The translations under genes were made by a program, and so were the position numbers. Below, in pieces: positions 28,915 to 51,350 of a stretch of 64,000 bases of DNA. Under the pieces are notes generated by a model. That model was not told the DNA's origin. It did no database searches and saw only the letters and a program-made list of their open reading frames with translations. Origin of the DNA: the human T2T-CHM13v2.0 reference genome, Homo sapiens; NCBI RefSeq assembly GCF_009914755.1, contig NC_060939.1. The stretch is one strand, 5' to 3'. The stretch's first letter is position 1. Every line of letters starts with the position of its first letter.

Positions 28915-31200
28915 TGGAATCTAATCTGGGATCACACATTGCACTCATTCTTCATGTCTCTTTAATCTCATTTAGAACACCGCACCTCCTTTCCTGCTCC
29001 CTCTTTTCATGATATTGGCATGTTTGAAAAGTCTAGGCCGGTCATTTTGTAGAATGTCCTGCAGTCTAGATTTGGCTTGTTTCCTTATGACTAGATTCAG
29101 GCTAAACAACTTTTTGGGGAGAAATTAATTTTCTTAATGTTTGTTGTTGGTGTGAAGAAACGCAAATGATTTTTCATAGTAACCTTTAGCCAGTAACCTT
29201 GATAAATTATTTCATGAGCTTTGATGTTTTACCTGTTTTCTTTTAATTTTTTATGCATGCAATCATGTTATCTGTAAATAATGACAGTTTACTTTTTCCT
29301 TTCTAATCTTCACCCTTTAGTTGCCTTTCCTTGCCTCACTGCACTGAACAGACGGTTATCTCCCAAACCTCCTAACGTTCATCTCGGGCAACCATTAGTC
29401 TATTTTCCAGCTCTGTAACTTCATTATTCCAAGAATAATGGAATCATATAGTGTGTAACCTTTTGAGATTGGCTTTAAAAAAAAAATACTTCCCTTGAAG
29501 TCTATTCAAGTTGTGTGTCAATGTCGACATGATTTTTAGAACCAGACTGCACAGATCTATTAGAGAACTGATATTTTTAAATATTGAATATTCCAGTCTA
29601 TTGCATAGTACATTGCTTACTTTATTTATATCTTTAAATTTTTTCTCTAAATGTTCATCTTTTTATTCTTTTTTAAAAAAGGTGGTACATAATTTTAATT
29701 GTATTCCCCTTTTCCTATGCTTTGGAAGATTTTGTGTAGAAGCAGTGTTCTTTCTTTCTTAAATGTTTGTAAGCATTCACTTGCAAAATTGTCTGCACCT
29801 GGTTTTCTTTGTGAGCAGATTTTTAATTACAATATCTTTTTTAATTTTTTTTGATGGTAATGTGTTTCTCAATGCTGTTTGTCTTTCAGCCTCTATTTCT
29901 CCTTCACTTTTTGAAGGATATTTTCACTGGGTATAGACTTCCAGTCTGGCAAGATGGCATCAAGATGCTGTTCCTTTGTTTCCTGGAGTCCATTGTTTCT
30001 ATTTTAAAATCAGTCATCAGTCTTAGTGTTGCTCCTTTGAAGATAATTTTCTTTTTTTTTTTCCAAATGCTTTCAGATTTTTCTCTGTTTTTGCTTTTCA
30101 TCAGTTTGCTATAATGTCCCTAGATATGGTGTTGCTTCTCTCCTTCTTGGGAATTATAGTGTTGCTTGTATCTGTGGTATCCCATCTTTTATTCATTTTT
30201 GAAAATTCTCTTCTTTTCAAATAGTACTTCTCCACTCTGTCTTCTCCTTTCCTCTGTGACTCCTCATAACAAATATGCTAGATATTTTTACCATACTCTA
30301 GACGCCTCTTATATTCCTTCTGTATTTTCCAACATTTTGTCTTTCTGTGCCTCAGCATGTATTTTTTTTCTGATTCCATCTCCCAATTCACTTTTTCTTC
30401 AGTTGAATTCAAACTCCTGTTAAACCAATCTATTGATTTCCTAATTTCAGTTTGTTCTAAAGTTTTAAGATTTAGGATTTCTATTTTGAATGCTTTCTCA
30501 TTCTCTGACAAAATACTTCTGTATTTCTTAAACCAATTAATTATAGCTGTATGAGGTTTGTTTCTGATAATTTCAAATCCTGGATGCTCCAAGGATATGT
30601 CCCTACTGTTCATTGATTATCTTGAGTTTTGTTAATATCTTAACCTCTACTATTCCTGGCTTTTTAAAAATTAAATGCCGGGCATTATATGTAAACATTT
30701 AAGAGGTAATTTGAGGTTCTGGATAATTGTATCTACATTTTAAGAGGATTACTTTTTCTCTAGGCAATGAGACTAGAAGCCCCAGTTACCCCAGGTCATC
30801 TTAATATCATCAGGGACTGACATAATTTTGCGGTTGGTCTTCAGTTCCTTTGAGGGCTGATCCCTTTTTAGTATCCCCAGGTCAAAATGATTTCAAATTC
30901 TGAGCTAACTTTTCTGGAATTCCGTCTCTTTTCCATAATTTCTCACTCACTTGTTTGCTTGCCAATGATGTCAAGATTTTCTGTTGTTCTTGAGGGAGAG
31001 CTGTTCTGATTCACTCAGTCTACCATTACCAAGCATGGAACCTATTTCATGACAGTTTGTTTCTTCATGTGTTTTGTGACTTTTGATTATAAAATCATGT
31101 TCCTAGTCACTATCTTTGAGAAATCGTTAAGGCCTCAGCTTAAACCTTTTGGAGAGAACTTATATTTGCTTATGCTAGATGCCAGGAAGCACAGTCAACT
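28915..31200 (-). mobile_element. Patchwork of old L1M fragments, including an ORF1 remnant
   Basis: Minus-strand IIFKGATLRLMTDFKIETMDSRKQ resembles the L1 ORF1p C-terminal domain. Confidence 0.65.
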
Positions 31201-31226
31201 TCAGATCACTTTAAACTAAAATTTCT

Positions 31227-31512
31227 GGCTGAGAGCAGTGGCTCATGCCTGTAATCTCAGCACTTCGGGAGGCTGAGGCAGGTGGATCACCTGAAGTCAG
31301 GAGTTTGAGATTAGCCTGGCTAACATGGTGAAACCCCATCTCTACTAAAAATACAAAACTTAGCCGGGCATGTTGGTGGGTGGCAGTAATTCCAGCTACT
31401 TGGGAGACTGAGGCAGGAGAATTGCTTGAACCTGGGAGGTGGAGGTTGCAGTGAGCCAATGCGCTCTAGCCTGGGTGACAGAGCGAGACTCCGTCTCAGA
31501 AAACAAACAAAC
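31227..31512 (+). mobile_element. Alu (AluS)
   Basis: Dimer with a short internal deletion. Confidence 0.93.
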
Positions 31513-31515
31513 CCA

Positions 31516-31890
<375 letters not shown>

Positions 31891-32424
31891 TCAAATAGGG
31901 ACAGATGGTTAGGAATGTGTTAGGGGAATGTTTTATTTCTTTGCTTCTGTGCTCACCCACTGAAGGTATTGAGTTCTGGGATTTCTGACTTTATGCAGGG
32001 GTCTCTGGTCAGAACTCTTCCTCCAGCCCAGCTCCCCTCTTACTTTGGTCATTTGTACCCAGCATAGTTCAGTGTAACTGTGGTTCTAGGCGACTGGAAA
32101 CCAGCAGAAGCCTTCAGGACAAAATTCAGCTCACTCATACAGGATTTTGATTCCAATGGAATTTCTGCCCTCTCATTGTTTTCCTTATTTTATTGCTATC
32201 TCAGTAGAACTTTAAATAAATAAATAAAGCTAAAATTATTTTATTTGCCATTTTTATATGTAATGATCTCGGAGGGATTCTTGAACAGATGTGGTCTACA
32301 GTCTACAGCTAACATGTAGCTGCCTGCTTTCACTGTGTTCACTCTTCAGATTAATAAAATGAAAAGCAATGCTGATAATAGTGGTTTCTTTTCTTTCTGC
32401 TTTCTCCAGTAATTAGCTTATGGG

Positions 32425-32830
32425 GGACACTCAGAGGACAGGATTTAGGATCAGCAGACCTGGGTCTGCCTCCCATCTCCACTGCTAAGAGTTGAATCAG
32501 TCCATGCAGGCCACTCCCCATCCTCAGCCTTTTCTTCTGTCAAATGAACAATATAATCCCCTAGTTTTAGGGAATTTTGAGGAATACATCAGATTACCAA
32601 ATCGTGAGTTCCTTGAGCTGATAAAGAGTGAGCACTTACTGTGTGTAAGGCAACTTTCCTAAGTGCTAGGGATACAAAAGTGAACAAAACACACAAAAAA
32701 TGTGTCTGTGTGTGTGTGGGGGTTGGTGTGGATGTCCACAGGCATACATGTGTGGTAGCAGACAATAATATAAGAAAAATAAAGTAAAATATATAGTGTT
32801 TTAGGTGGTAGTAATTCCTATGTCAAACAA
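32425..32830. mobile_element. MIR (+) followed by L2 (-) fragments
   Basis: MIR-like CAGACCTGGGT...TCTGTCAAATG; L2-like GAGCACTTACTGTGTG...CTAAGTGCTAGGGATACA..AGTGAACAAAACA...GTAAAATATATAGT. Confidence 0.65.
32514..32718 (+). repeat. Inverted repeat, left arm (donor copy)
   Basis: Reverse complement of 35108-35319; about 14 substitutions plus small indels by hand alignment. Confidence 0.95.
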
Positions 32831-33453
32831 CAGCGCCGACGAAGTAGAGGGGATAGGAATGCGTGTGTATGCCTGTGTGGGCACGTTCGCTACCTCTGCA
32901 TCCCAGGCACCTAGACACGATCTGGCTCAGAGGGGAAGCTCAAAGAATGTTTGATGGATGAATTAACACTCATAGGACACTTACTACCATGCCTGGCGAA
33001 TAACAGTAGCTTTTGGTTTTAGAATGGATGCAGTTGCTATTGGGCTCCCCTCTTTATGTCCAGTTGATGCAAGTAGGTTAGGGGGTCTCTAGAGGCTCAC
33101 AAAGCTGTGCTTGGCTCAGAAGTTATCCAGATAAAAACTAGTATAGGAATCCAACTCCCCTCCTCCCTCCATCTTTCACCCCTGCAAATCTGGTGAGCTC
33201 CATGAAGCTTTCCTCCCCAGGTGACGTTGTTGCTGCTGTACTTAAGGGACAGCACAGGCCACCTGGGTGTGGGACAGAGCTGACACCTTCCTGTCTGGGC
33301 TCTTCCAGCCTTCACTCTAGAACGAAGCGGGAAGCCTCAGGTCCAAGGGGAGAGCCGCCGCAAAGGCCGCGTTGAACGCCGAGGTGCACGCGCAGGTACT
33401 GGCTAAGTGCGCGCCAGGGTGCTCGGGAGGGGGCGGGTGCGGGCCGCACTGCC

Positions 33454-34490
33454 GGGCGGGGTGCGCGAGTGAGGAGGGCGGGGTGCGCGAGAGAGGAGGG
33501 CGGGGTGCGCGAGTGAGGAGGGCGGGGTGCGCGAGTGAGGAGGGCGGGGTGCGCGAGTGAGGAGGGCGGGGGAGTGCGCGAGTGAGGAGGGCGGGGGAGT
33601 GCGCGAGTGAGGAGGGCGGGGTGCGCGAGTGAGGAGGGAGGGGTGCGCGAGTGAGGAGGGCGGGGGAGTGCGCGAGTGAGGAGGGCGGGGGAGTGCGCGA
33701 GTGAGGAGGGCGGGGGAGTGCGCGAGTGAGGAGGGCGGGGGAGTGCGCGAGTGAGGAGGGCGGGGTGCGCGAGTGAGGAGGGCGGGGGAGTGCGCGAGTG
33801 AGGAGGGCGGGGGAGTGCGCGAGTGAGGAGGGCGGGGGAGTGCGCGAGTGAGGAGGGAGGGGTGCGCGAGTGAGGAGGGCGGGGGAGTGCGCGAGTGAGG
33901 AGGGCGGGGGAGTGCGCGAGTGAGGAGGGCGGGGGAGTGCGCGAGTGAGGAGGGCGGGGTGCGCGAGAGAGGAGGGCGGGGTGCGCGAGTGAGGAGGGCG
34001 GGGGAGTGCGCGAGTGAGGAGGGCGGGGTGCGCGAGAGAGGAGGGCGGGGTGCGCGAGTGAGGAGGGCGGGGGAGTGCGCGAGTGAGGAGGGCGGGGTGC
34101 GCGAGTGAGGAGGGCGGGGGAGTGCGCGAGTGAGGAGGGCGGGGTGCGCGAGTGAGGAGGGCGGGGTGCGCGAGTGAGGAGGGCGGGGGAGTGCGCGAGT
34201 GAGGAGGGCGGGGGAGTGCGCGAGTGAGGAGGGCGGGGGAGTGCGCGAGTGAGGAGGGCGGGGGAGTGCGCGAGTGAGGAGGGAGGGGTGCGCGAGTGAG
34301 GAGGGCGGGGGAGTGCGCGAGTGAGGAGGGCGGGGGAGTGCGCGAGTGAGGAGGGCGGGGGAGTGCGCGAGTGAGGAGGGCGGGGGAGTGCGCGAGTGAG
34401 GAGGGCGGGGTGCGCGAGTGAGGAGGGCGGGGTGCGCGAGTGAGGAGGGCGGGGTGCGCGAGTGAGGAGGGCGGGGTGCGCGAGCGAGGG
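33454..34490 (+). repeat. GC-rich minisatellite (VNTR-like), 44 units of 22 or 25 bp
   Basis: GGGCGGGGTGCGCGAGTGAGGA (22 bp and variants, 21 units) and GGGCGGGGGAGTGCGCGAGTGAGGA (25 bp, 23 units); 1037 bp in total. Confidence 0.98.
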
Positions 34491-34571
34491 CGTCCGGCCG
34501 GCAGGTGGCACTGTGGCGTCGCCGTGGGCCGAGCCTGGCGAAGCGCTGCTCGCCCGAGATCGCGCAGCTTG
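34491..34571 (+). other. Candidate non-coding first exon (5' end undefined)
   Basis: Ends at TTG|GTGAGT, a consensus splice donor at the downstream edge of the CpG island. Confidence 0.45.
34496..34513 (+). promoter_or_regulatory. CTCF-like motif
   Basis: GGCCGGCAGGTGGCACTG closely matches the CTCF core CCRSYAGRKGGCRS; motif match only. Confidence 0.55.
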
Positions 34572-34985
34572 GTGAGTGGCAGCGCCTGGCTTTATACTCG
34601 CGTCTCGGACACCGATGGTCATCTTCCCACGTCCGTGACTCAGTGGCCTTCCAATGCAGGCTGCGGCCTCTCAGCCCAGAAGGCCCTGGGTTCTGGTACA
34701 GGCCTTCCTTGTGGCAGACGGAAGGAAGGCTGACAAAGGGAGTTCACCGGGTTTGCCTGACTTGCCACGCTCTTCTCTCTCCGTGCCAACTTTAACCTGG
34801 GAAGCCACACATACCTCTAGGGCCTCTGATATCTTCAGTGTCCCCAAGGCCCATGCTGCTCAGAGCCTCACGTGGCCGCAAACCCAGGTGCCAGTACTTG
34901 AGAGTTGCACCTTGAGCGGGAACTGCAGAGGGTTTTAATGGCACCAGCTCCAAACATTTCGCCCACAGCGTCTGCAGTCCTCCAC

Positions 34986-35716
34986 TGCGGAAGGCAGAAT
35001 AAACGCCCCAAGGGTGTCCACATCCTACTCCCCAGAGCCTGTGAATTTGTCCCCTTACATGGCAAAAGGGAATTACAGTTGCGGATGGAATTAAGGTAGA
35101 TTAATTGCACACACAGACAGAAACACGCATTTTTGTGTGTTTTGTTCACTGTCGTATCCCTAGCACTTAGGAAAGTTGCCTTACACACAGTAAGTGCTCA
35201 GTTAATCTTTATTGACTCAAGGAACTCACAGTTTAGTAATCCGATTTATTCCTCAAAATTCCCTAAAACTAGGGGATTATATTCTCCATCTGACAGAAGA
35301 AAAGGCTGAGGATGGGGAGCTTAATGGGTAAGGAGATTAGCCTGGGTCACCCAGGTGGGCCCAATGCAATCACCTGTCCTTATAAGGAAGAGAGGCGAGA
35401 GAAAGAAAGAGAGAGAACAGAGAACAGAGAAGGCCGACAGCACCAGGAGGTCTCAGCCCGGTTTTTCTGGCTTTGGGGATGGAGGACGGGCCACGGAACA
35501 GGGCGGCCTCTGCCTAGCAGCTGGAAAAGGTAAGGGACTAGGTTCTCCCAACGAACCTCCGGAAAGAAACGCAGCCCTGCCAGCAGCTTCATTTCAGCTC
35601 AGTGAGACCTCTTTTTACTCTTTCGACCTCCAGGACTGTAAGATCATAAACGTGTGTTGTTGGAAGCCAGCAAGTTTGTGGTAATTTGTCACAGCAGTCG
35701 TGGGCCCACTAAGACA
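34986..35716 (+). mobile_element. MLT1 (MLT1D/E-like) LTR split by a 212-bp insertion
   Basis: 5' part GTCCACATCCTA...CTTACATGGCAAAAGGGAATT...GGAATTAAGGT resumes after 35319 as GGAGATTAGCCTGG...GGTGGGCCCAATGCAATCAC and ends ACTAAGACA. Confidence 0.85.
35108..35319 (-). repeat. Inverted repeat, right arm (derived copy)
   Basis: Reverse complement of 32514-32718, inserted in the MLT1. Confidence 0.95.
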
Positions 35717-35777
35717 CCTGTCGTGGGCCTCGTGTCCAGAGGCCTCAGCTGAAATGCACTGGGGGCCTGGTGGTGTG

Positions 35778-36025
35778 TGTTAGGTCCACTTGGCTTGCTG
35801 TGTTGTTCAAGTCCTCTCATTTCCTTTCTTATCTTCTGTCTGGTTGTTCTTTCCATTATTGAAAGTGGGGGACTGAGGTCTCCGACGATTATTGTAGAAC
35901 TACTTTTCCCTCCAATTCGCTCCCTTTCTGCTTTGCATATTCTGTTAAGTGCTAAATGTTTATAACTACTTATTCTTGCTGTATTGAATCTCTTCTCAAT
36001 ATATAATGTTCTTTGTCTCTTGTAA
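35778..36025 (-). mobile_element. L1M fragment
   Basis: GTGTTGTTCAAGTCCTCT...TCCATTATTGAAAGTGGGG...TCTCC.AC.ATTATTGT, antisense L1 endonuclease region. Confidence 0.7.
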
Positions 36026-36259
36026 CCTTGGACAAGATACAGACTACTTAGACTATTGAAAATCCTGACAGTGTATTTGAAACATGCACGTGGACATGGT
36101 TTTATTTTTCTCAGTTACTGCTTTCAACTGTGTGCTGATTGAAACTCCTTTCCCCTGGATAGAAGACCTATTAAAATAACCCAACTTTATTCACTAACTT
36201 GTCAACTACTTTTGGTCAGTCAGAATTTTGTCTTTGGCCAGAGTTAATCAGCTAACCCG

Positions 36260-36413
36260 TTGTCCCCAGATCATCAGTGCAGCTTCACCTGGGTACTTCT
36301 TATAAATGCAAATTCTCAGGCCCTGCCCCAGAAACTCTGGAGGTGGCCCTGCAGTCTGTGTTTAAGAAGCCCTCCAGGGGATCCTCAGGTGTGATAAACT
36401 TTGAGAATCAGCG
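36260..36413. mobile_element. MER5A-like hAT fragment
   Basis: TCACCTGGG...AAATGCAAATTCTCAGGCCC...AAGCCCTCCAGG...TTTGAGAA. Confidence 0.7.
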
Positions 36414-37090
36414 GTAACCCATCTGCAGAGGTATTTCTATTATTTCAGTAATTATATTTTTAAAATTTTACTTTCTGGAAATACTTTTTAAAATTTACCT
36501 ATTTTTTCATGTATCTTGATTCTTTTTTTCTGTTTTTATTTCTCATTTTAGGTCTTTAGTAATTTTAAGCCAATTTATCTTGTAGGCTCTGTTTTGATCA
36601 TTCTACTGGCTTTCCATCCCTGAAGTTTATTGACTTGGAGTTGCCAGTGTTTTGTAATTTGGGATTGTGAGCTGGTCTTAATGGGGACTTCATCTATTGG
36701 AATCTTCTGTACCTTACATGAGAGTGGGTGCCTCCAGAGTGCTTTTGGGTTTGCTTCAGCCAGGTGCTTGGCGTTATCACCAGCCCAGGACTGCTTTGCA
36801 TACCAATGTTTTGACCTGGGGATTTTCTGGCCCATGCATGTCATATACAGCCTAATCCCATCACATGAGTATGGGCCTGTGATGACAAATTGATAGGAGA
36901 ATCATTTTCCCTACTCAGAGCCCAGGCCAGGTCTAATATCCCTGACATAACTGCCAGTGGGGGAACTTTCTCTAGATGATGATTACTGAGAGTGCATCCT
37001 GCCCTTGAAGGACCCCTCATTTATGAGTGTTGTGGGGCAGGTCCAAGGCTTCCTCTCCAATTCCTCACAGCATTAAAACCCAAGTCCCTA

Positions 37091-51045: not shown

Positions 51046-51350
51046 TGTGGTATGCAGAATAATGACAACTCAAAGAGGCCCAAGTCCTAATCTTCAGAAC
51101 CTATAAATATATTATCTTATGTGGTAAAAGTAACCTGTAGATGTTAGGTTAAGGTTCTTGAGGTGGGGAGATTTTCTTGGATTATCTGGGTGGAACTAAT
51201 GCAATCACAAGAGTACTTATAGAAAAGATATAGGAAAATCAGAATCAGAGAAGATGATGTAATGATAGAAACAGAGTTTTAAAGATGCTATCTAGTTTGT
51301 GTCACCAGATTTATGGTAACTTGTTACAGCAGCCATAGGAAACTAAAGCA
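51046..51350 (+). mobile_element. MLT1D-like LTR, internally deleted
   Basis: CAGAATAATG...GTCCTAATC...GAACCT...GGGGAGATT...GGATTATCTGGGTGG...TTGTTACAGCAGCCATAGGAAACTAA. Confidence 0.75.

What the first reader, a model, noticed from the sequence alone, without database searches (positions are those of the whole stretch)
32514..35319. CpG-island/VNTR cassette bracketed by ~205-bp inverted repeats: a potentially invertible promoter and CTCF switch
Seen: 32514-32718 and 35108-35319 are reverse complements, about 91-92% identical by hand, with perfect tracts of 37 and 47 bp. They are not two copies of one transposon, because the duplicated segment spans a MIR/L2 junction. The ~2.4 kb between them holds the whole CpG island, the strand-asymmetric GC-box array, a CTCF-like motif and a splice donor. 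Established: inverted repeats can mediate inversions by non-allelic homologous recombination, and CTCF function depends on orientation. Inference: an inverted allele would flip the candidate first exon and the CTCF site together. The arms are short and diverged, so inversion may be rare or absent.
Basis: partly seen in the sequence, partly recalled or inferred. Interest (0 to 1): 0.8.

Follow-up and report, generated by a model that had tools for sequence, protein, structure and literature searches.

The report
Old inverted duplication around lncRNA promoter
A real pair of about 205-base inverted repeats brackets a CpG-island promoter with a GC-rich tandem repeat, but it looks like the scar of one old copy-and-paste repair event, not a working DNA switch.

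Summary
Bases 32514-32718 and 35108-35319 are reverse complements: 188 of 205 aligned bases match, there are two indels, and the perfect tracts are 47 and 37 bp. These are the only two full-length copies in the T2T genome.

The right arm is a 212-bp insertion that splits a copy of a dispersed repeat, which I recall as an MLT1-type LTR. In 10 of 11 other genomic copies holding both flanks, the flanks abut. The left arm lies inside an older SINE-like repeat that runs past its outer edge, so it is the donor.

The two LTR halves are collinear. The cassette in T2T-CHM13 therefore has the orientation it had when the copy was made. Divergence (K2P 0.089) suggests roughly 40 Myr, at assumed rates.

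The cassette is as described: a CpG island, a 43-unit 22/25-bp VNTR found nowhere else in the genome, 42 GC boxes all on the + strand, and two alternative first exons.

The CTCF-like motif is no better than chance. This window alone holds 37 inverted pairs of at least 150 bp, and 19 of them bracket the cassette.

Inversion is physically possible but unsupported. Orientation in other genomes could not be tested. The feature is ordinary, and interest is low.

The parts
32415..32595 (+). Old dispersed SINE-like repeat (recalled as MIR). It runs across the outer edge of the left arm at 32513|32514.
   Evidence: A profile built from 7 copies elsewhere, with none from this locus, matches 32415-32595 at model positions 22-212 with E 2.1e-4. 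A single genomic copy used as query matches 32413-32567 with E 0.0022.
32514..32718 (+). Left arm, the donor copy of the duplicated segment.
   Evidence: The old repeat continues to the left of the arm edge only at this copy.
32623..32698 (.). Piece of a second dispersed family inside the arm (recalled as the 3' end of L2).
   Evidence: Three other genomic places match only arm positions 110/116-185 at 80-83% identity.
33211..33395 (+). First exon of the predicted lncRNA LOC124907505, with a GT donor at 33396.
   Evidence: The hub's RefSeq table gives the exon. One search shows the donor context.
33220..34779 (.). CpG island.
   Evidence: Sliding 200-bp windows with GC >= 0.5 and CpG o/e >= 0.6. 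Composition profile.
33453..34489 (+). GC-rich VNTR of 43 units: 23 of 25 bp and 20 of 22 bp, in 4 sequence types. Each unit carries a GC box on the + strand, and the G-rich strand is the + strand.
   Evidence: TRF. Unit parsing and GC-box counts. The 23-mer unit core occurs 43 times forward and 0 times reverse in the whole genome, all at this locus.
34492..34571 (+). Alternative first exon just after the array. It has no AG in front, and a GT donor at 34572.
   Evidence: The hub's table lists it among exons of other transcripts. One search shows the context.
34498..34512 (+). CTCF-like 15-mer with one mismatch to the recalled core motif.
   Evidence: There is 1 match in the window, 0.45 are expected, and 39 of 100 shuffles reach 1.
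34981..35107 (+). Left half of the interrupted LTR-like dispersed repeat (recalled as an MLT1-type MaLR LTR).
   Evidence: 642 first-look candidates, 40 scored, 39 of them elsewhere in the genome at 76-91% identity.
35108..35319 (-). Right arm, an inserted inverted copy of 32514-32718.
   Evidence: It separates two flanks that abut in other copies of the LTR-like family.
35320..35480 (+). Right half of the interrupted LTR-like repeat, collinear with the left half.
   Evidence: 34 genomic matches, 33 of them elsewhere. Adjacency to the left half in other copies is shown.

Best explanation
The inverted repeat is the fossil of one duplicative insertion. A 212-bp copy of a composite stretch was made: part of an old SINE-like repeat, the tail of a second old repeat and a TG-rich run. 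It was pasted in reverse orientation 2.4 kb downstream, into a solitary LTR-like repeat. About 3-5 target bases were lost, and there is no target-site duplication and no poly(A).

That pattern fits templated synthesis during break repair or a replication template switch (FoSTeS/MMBIR type), not transposition. This step is inferred.

The event is old, roughly 40 Myr if neutral rates of 1.0-1.2e-9 per site per year apply.

The CpG-island promoter and its Sp1-box VNTR merely lie between donor and copy. In T2T-CHM13 they still have the original orientation. I judge that the arms have no function and that flipping, if it ever happens, is very rare.

The cassette itself works as an ordinary GC-skewed CpG-island promoter with two alternative first exons flanking the VNTR. 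This rests on the annotation and on sequence features.
For: Shown:
- Only two full-length copies of the arm exist in the 3.1-Gb genome.
- The sequence left of the right arm (34960-35107) and right of it (35320-35480) both belong to a dispersed family.
- Of the 22 loci fetched with those flanks, 11 carry both flanks at E <= 0.01. In 10 of those 11 the flanks are collinear with only 4-26 bases between the matches. That is a net -18 to +5 bases relative to this locus, mostly +3 to +5. look at the junction in 10 and 9 of them. L024 is the non-collinear one.
- A further copy in the window shows the same adjacency (51054-51143 and 51162-51236).
- The SINE-like family profile covers 32415-32595 at the left copy, but only 35311-35244 (model positions 136-206, E 0.086) at the right copy. 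The left copy is therefore the unbroken one.
- There are 17 substitutions (11 transitions, 6 transversions), giving K2P 0.0885.
- No Pfam family is found in the 3 ORFs of at least 80 aa in or beside the cassette.

Background:
- MEPS figures come from PMC2583991 (passages).
- 24 validated NAHR inversions have repeats of 654 bp to 24.2 kb (PMC6748972, passage).
- Recurrence is driven by repeat length: 23 of 32 recurrent inversions have repeats of at least 10 kb (bioRxiv 10.1101/2021.12.20.472354, passages).
Against: - Differences between the arms are clustered. With 19 events placed at random, the chance of tracts of both >= 47 and >= 37 bp is 0.008, although for the longest tract alone it is 0.105. 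The test is post hoc. This could reflect partial gene conversion between the arms, which would mean they do interact. It could equally reflect mutation clusters or the indel region.
- Short-repeat NAHR is documented: repeats of 140 bp (bioRxiv 10.1101/2025.05.27.656315), and matching fragments under 50 bp for repeats 5 kb apart (PMC2583991).
- 132 of 183 resolved balanced inversions have flanking repeats of at least 200 bp (bioRxiv 10.1101/2021.12.20.472354). These arms are therefore within the reported range.
- Only one haplotype was examined.
- The junctions are too old to show microhomology, so the repair mechanism is inferred.
- The names MIR, L2 and MLT1 are recalled.
Confidence: 0.8

Rival explanations
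1. The arms mediate NAHR, so the 2.4-kb cassette exists in two orientations in human populations, in somatic cells or among primates. A flip would turn over the first exons, the GC-box array and the CTCF-like site together.
For: - The arms are inverted, 2.4 kb apart and 89-92% identical.
- They meet the thresholds of 200 bp and 80% identity used for repeats that can mediate rearrangement (PMC11794170).
- NAHR inversions with 140-bp repeats, and NAHR with identity tracts under 50 bp between close repeats, are reported (bioRxiv 10.1101/2025.05.27.656315; PMC2583991).
- The clustered differences could be conversion tracts.
Against: - The longest identical tract is 47 bp.
- The T2T orientation is the original one, because the LTR halves are collinear.
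- The predicted lncRNA splices exon 1, inside the cassette, to exons far outside it on the same strand (hub table). The transcripts behind that model came from this orientation.
- The base rate is very low: a few hundred balanced inversions against about 628,000 inverted pairs (PMC11794170; bioRxiv 10.1101/2021.12.20.472354).
- 18 other inverted pairs in this window bracket the same cassette.
- The CTCF motif is at chance level.
Confidence: 0.04
2. The arms act in RNA. A transcript covering both would fold into a stem of about 200 bp, making a substrate for A-to-I editing or bringing splice sites together for exon circularisation.
For: The predicted inter-arm RNA duplex energy is -309.4 kcal/mol, against -61.1 +/- 6.2 for 30 shuffles. 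From general knowledge, flanking inverted repeats are known to promote such effects.
Against: The annotated transcripts start at 33211 or 34492, downstream of the left arm (hub table). No known RNA carries both arms. A first exon has no upstream acceptor to back-splice. Rfam finds nothing in the arms or the cassette.
Confidence: 0.05
3. The pair is the footprint of an old inversion made by staggered breaks, which leaves inverted duplications at the two breakpoints.
For: An inverted duplication at both ends of a segment is the signature of that model (recalled from Drosophila work; no paper was read here).
Against: That model predicts that the partner of the outer LTR half lies next to the left arm, in reverse orientation. 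Instead it lies directly inside the right arm in the same orientation. Nothing at 32719-32900 matches the LTR family.
Confidence: 0.02
4. The arms are the terminal inverted repeats of a DNA transposon, or two independent insertions of one repeat family.
For: The arms are inverted and of equal length at the two ends of a 2.8-kb unit.
Against: - The genome holds no other full-length copy.
- The arm is made of pieces of two different dispersed families.
- The left arm's outer edge lies inside an older repeat.
- There is no target-site duplication.
- No ORF of at least 80 aa matches any Pfam family, so no transposase or recombinase domain was found.
Confidence: 0.01

Closest known systems
Templated or duplicative insertions from break repair or replication template switching (FoSTeS/MMBIR-type local inverted duplications)
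   Same: A short copy of nearby sequence was inserted in reverse orientation at a site that can be reconstructed as empty. A few target bases were lost, and there is no target-site duplication or poly(A).
   Different: The event is tens of millions of years old. Junction microhomology can no longer be read, so the pathway cannot be assigned.
Inverted-repeat (NAHR) polymorphic inversions of the human genome
   Same: Inverted arms of more than 80% identity and at least 200 bp flank a unique segment.
   Different: - The arms are at the very bottom of the reported size range.
- The longest identity tract is 47 bp.
- No second orientation is known.
- Validated sets have repeats of 654 bp to 24.2 kb (PMC6748972) or 140 bp to 134 kb (bioRxiv 10.1101/2025.05.27.656315).
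Bacterial invertible promoter switches (fim or hin type)
   Same: By geometry only: a promoter lies between inverted repeats.
   Different: Those switches use a site-specific recombinase and short specific repeats. No ORF of at least 80 aa here matches any Pfam family, so no recombinase was found. No such system is known for mammalian promoters (general knowledge).
CpG-island promoters with GC-box minisatellites and positive GC skew
   Same: It has a CpG island, 42 co-oriented GGGCGG boxes, and G-richness on the non-template strand downstream of the first start site.
   Different: The array is unique to this locus, and the gene is an uncharacterised predicted lncRNA. Binding, R-loops and copy-number variation were not tested.

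Membership tests
NAHR-competent inverted repeat pair (inversion locus) | Two arms in inverted orientation with high identity | tested here: met
   188 of 205 aligned bases match. The score is 305 against 20.7 +/- 2.5 for shuffles.
NAHR-competent inverted repeat pair (inversion locus) | An uninterrupted identity tract of MEPS size (134-232 bp in cultured cells, 300-500 bp in meiosis; PMC2583991) | tested here: not met
   The longest perfect tracts are 47 and 37 bp. The same paper cites exceptions with under 50 bp for close repeats.
NAHR-competent inverted repeat pair (inversion locus) | Both orientations observed among haplotypes or species | not testable with these tools
   Only T2T-CHM13 is held. 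The supplement searches found nothing, and the files held were small or unreadable.
Templated or duplicative insertion (repair or template-switch scar) | The copy interrupts a pre-existing sequence whose empty state can be reconstructed | tested here: met
   The flanks abut in 10 of the 11 loci that carry both flanks, and in one further copy in the window.
Templated or duplicative insertion (repair or template-switch scar) | A donor nearby that extends beyond the copied segment | tested here: met
   The SINE-like profile covers 32415-32595 at the left copy. The right copy starts at the point equivalent to 32514.
Templated or duplicative insertion (repair or template-switch scar) | Microhomology or short deletion at the junctions, and no target-site duplication | tested here: inconclusive
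   About 3-5 target bases are missing and no duplication is seen. The family copies differ by 20-30%, so single-base junction features cannot be read.
DNA transposon with terminal inverted repeats | Several genomic copies with the same termini, a target-site duplication, and a transposase or its remnants | tested here: not met
   There are two arm copies only, both at this locus. There is no duplication and no Pfam family in the ORFs.
CpG-island promoter | At least 200 bp with GC >= 0.5 and CpG o/e >= 0.6, overlapping a transcription start | tested here: met
   33220-34779 meets the criteria. The starts at 33211 and 34492 come from the hub's RefSeq table of predicted models.
CTCF site | A motif match above chance, and occupancy | tested here: inconclusive
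   There is one match with one mismatch, and 39 of 100 shuffles do as well. Occupancy is not testable here.

The most novel reading that the evidence does not exclude
The two 205-bp arms still recombine now and then, helped by their 2.4-kb spacing. On this reading the clustered differences are conversion tracts, and a low-frequency germline or somatic allele exists in which the CpG-island promoter, its 42 one-strand GC boxes, the G-rich VNTR and the CTCF-like site point the other way. That allele would uncouple the lncRNA's first exons from the rest of the gene.
Probability: 0.03. Interest if true: 0.5.

Novelty: new member of a known kind. Interest (0 to 1): 0.15.

Why it matters
It matters little as it stands. 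It is a clean, datable example of a short inverted templated insertion in a primate genome, with donor, copy and reconstructable empty site all in view. It also shows why an inverted pair around a promoter is not evidence of a switch: this window alone has 19 pairs around the same cassette.

The VNTR with its CpG island is probably the biologically more relevant part, as a likely copy-number-variable Sp1-box array beside two start sites. If both orientations were ever found, the locus would be a small natural experiment on promoter and GC-skew orientation.

Tried and rejected
- The own-genome DNA search with the SINE-like part (32400-32625) found only the two arms. The family was therefore shown indirectly, with nhmmer on 144 kb of fetched DNA and a 7-member profile.
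- The first MAFFT alignment misplaced the short central piece of the family copies inside the arm. I replaced it with anchored pairwise alignments.
- A 5-bp word that occurs on both sides of the right arm looked like a target-site duplication. One search shows that the two words align to different positions of the family copies, so I rejected it.
- nhmmer extended the arm match out to 35379. That stretch belongs to the LTR-like family, so I treat the extension as spurious.
- The Rfam scan of 31000-37000 gave only Alu/SRP-like and weak miRNA-family matches outside the arms and the cassette.
- The 436-aa ORF on the - strand across the VNTR has no Pfam match and is a stop-free artefact of the repeat.
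- Literature on a VNTR near ADAMTS17: 4 papers hold both words, and none concerns this locus judging by title and abstract start.
- Searches of supplements for the locus coordinates: nothing in 2 small files of PMC13721702; the one held file of PMC12058530 was unreadable; PMC11794170 had only a gene-level row for ADAMTS17.
- bioRxiv supplements are closed. The inversion tables of 10.1101/2021.12.20.472354 and 10.1101/2025.05.27.656315, which could list this locus, were therefore not seen.
Full report
**Observation**

The inverted repeat is real and lies at the stated coordinates. A local alignment of 32300-33000 against the reverse complement of 34900-35600 returns 32514-32718 versus 35319-35108. 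It has 212 columns, 188 matches, 17 mismatches and two indels of 4 and 3 bases. Perfect tracts are 47, 37, 29 and 21 bp. The score is 305, against 20.7 +/- 2.5 for 200 shuffles. Counting gap columns it is 88.7%.

**What the arms are made of**

A search of the whole T2T-CHM13 assembly (3.1 Gb, held as G000) with the left arm finds five places. Two are the arms themselves. The other three cover only arm positions 110/116-185, at 80-83% identity (repeated with a shifted query). So the arm is not a repeat family of its own, and one part of it belongs to a dispersed family. I recall this part as the 3' end of L2, but no tool named it.

The other part gave no hit in the genome search. I therefore took weak nhmmer hits in 144,494 bases of fetched DNA. 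One of them (in L017) served as a query and found 7 further places at E < 0.01, including window 32413-32567. From 7 members, none from this locus, I built a profile.

- The profile matches 32415-32595 at model positions 22-212, with E 2.1e-4.
- At the right arm it matches only 35311-35244, at model positions 136-206, with E 0.086.

This family, which I recall as MIR, thus runs across the outer edge of the left arm but stops at the edge of the right arm.

**How the pair arose**

The sequences on either side of the right arm both belong to one dispersed family, which I recall as an MLT1-type MaLR LTR.

- 34960-35107 gave 642 first-look candidates. 40 were scored, 39 of them elsewhere.
- 35320-35480 gave 34 matches, 33 of them elsewhere.

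Of the 22 loci fetched with these two queries, 11 carry both flanks at E <= 0.01. In 10 of those 11 the flanks are collinear with 4-26 bases between the matched ends. That corresponds to a net -18 to +5 bases relative to this locus, mostly +3 to +5. L024 is not collinear (junction views). A copy inside the window shows the same adjacency (51054-51143 and 51162-51236).

The right arm is therefore a 212-bp insertion into that repeat, and the left arm is the donor. A 5-base word on both sides of the insert looked like a target-site duplication. It aligns to two different positions of the family copies, so there is none. About 3-5 target bases are missing and there is no poly(A).

I infer a templated insertion during break repair or a replication template switch. 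The junctions are too old to show microhomology, so this step is not demonstrated.

**Consequence for the switch idea**

The two halves of the interrupted repeat are in the same orientation, one inside the cassette and one outside. If the cassette had been flipped by recombination between the arms, the inner half would lie next to the left arm in reverse. The cassette in T2T-CHM13 thus has the orientation it had when the copy was made, or has flipped an even number of times. The same arrangement contradicts the model in which the duplication is the by-product of an old staggered-break inversion.

**Age**

There are 17 substitutions in 205 bases: 11 transitions and 6 transversions, 4 of them in CpG context. 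K2P is 0.0885. This gives:

- 37-44 Myr at 1.0-1.2e-9 per site per year;
- 20 Myr at 2.2e-9;
- 89 Myr at 0.5e-9.

The rates are assumed, not measured.

The differences are clustered. With 19 events placed at random, the longest tract reaches 47 bp in 10.5% of trials, and tracts of both >= 47 and >= 37 bp occur in 0.8%. This test is post hoc. The pattern could come from gene conversion, from clustered mutation, or from the indel region. It cannot be resolved without outgroups.

**The cassette**

- CpG-island-like windows span 33220-34779. For 33200-34700, GC is 0.73 and CpG o/e is 1.12.
- The tandem array lies at 33453-34476/34489. It has 43 units of four types: 23 of 25 bp, and 14 + 3 + 3 of 22 bp.
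- The array's 23-base core occurs 43 times forward and 0 times reverse in the whole genome, all at this locus.
- GGGCGG occurs 42 times on the + strand and never on the - strand.
- G-runs of three or more number 116 on the + strand and 17 on the - strand.
- GC skew is +0.56 to +0.69.
- The annotated exon 33211-33395 is followed by a GT donor. The exon 34492-34571 has no AG in front and a GT after it, so it is an alternative first exon directly behind the array (exons from the hub's table).

The array therefore sits in the first intron of one transcript and forms the proximal promoter of the other, with its G-rich strand as the non-template strand.

The CTCF-like 15-mer at 34498-34512 has one mismatch. 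It is the only such match in the window, but 39 of 100 shuffles give at least one.

**How special is the bracket?**

In this 64-kb window a self-comparison finds 37 inverted pairs of at least 150 bp and 80% identity. The other 36 pairs are 157-312 bp long and 80.1-85.5% identical, which I take to be Alu-sized.

Genome-wide, 627,791 inverted pairs of at least 200 bp and 80% identity are reported for T2T-CHM13 (PMC11794170, summary and Table 1 passages).

**Can such arms recombine?**

From passages read:

- MEPS is 134-232 bp in cultured cells and 300-500 bp in human meiosis. Exceptions exist below 114 bp and below 50 bp, the latter for alpha-globin repeats 5 kb apart (PMC2583991).
- 24 validated NAHR inversions have repeats of 654 bp to 24.2 kb (PMC6748972).
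- 54 NAHR inversions have repeats of 140 bp to 134 kb (bioRxiv 10.1101/2025.05.27.656315).
- 132 of 183 resolved balanced inversions have flanking repeats of at least 200 bp. Recurrence depends mainly on repeat length, and 23 of 32 recurrent inversions have repeats of at least 10 kb (bioRxiv 10.1101/2021.12.20.472354).

The arms are therefore at the bottom of the range. Inversion is possible but expected to be very rare.

**Other readings**

- If one RNA carried both arms it would form a strong stem: -309.4 kcal/mol, against -61.1 +/- 6.2 for 30 shuffles. The annotated starts lie downstream of the left arm.
- No Rfam family matches the arms or the cassette.
- The three ORFs of at least 80 aa have no Pfam family. 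The 436-aa ORF on the - strand is a stop-free artefact of the array.

**What could not be done**

No other human haplotype and no primate genome is held here. The supplements that might list inversions at this locus were closed, unreadable or empty for the coordinates. Repeat family names were not confirmed by any library.

**Verdict**

The structural inference is right and can be sharpened to donor, copy and empty site. The switch interpretation is unsupported and unlikely, though not excluded. This is an ordinary feature of a known kind.

Noticed in passing
window 33562-33861 and 34085-34384: Two 300-bp blocks of the VNTR, 523 bp apart, are 98% identical, while most other registers are 61-84% identical. 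This points to a recent internal duplication or unequal exchange within the array.
   Followed up: no
window 33312-34622 (- strand): A 436-aa ATG-started ORF runs across the whole VNTR. It has no Pfam match and is a stop-free artefact of the C-rich repeat strand.
   Followed up: partly
window 31228-31800: Two tandem Alu-like elements upstream of the left arm give sub-threshold Rfam matches to SRP RNA and to Alu-derived miRNA families such as mir-1268 and mir-3135. They form inverted pairs with Alu-sized repeats at 46-55 kb that also bracket the cassette.
   Followed up: partly
window 51054-51251: This is another, uninterrupted copy of the LTR-like family that the right arm splits. It is useful as an in-window model of the empty site.
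   Followed up: partly
window 36279-36382 (- strand): A weak Rfam match to the mir-544 family: 26.4 bits against a gathering score of 66.5, with E 0.087. It is probably chance or repeat-derived.
   Followed up: no
window 34377-34671: The hub's RefSeq table places an enhancer (34377-34671) and a silencer (34393-34452) over the last VNTR units, the alternative first exon and the CTCF-like motif. The evidence behind these entries could not be seen here.
   Followed up: no
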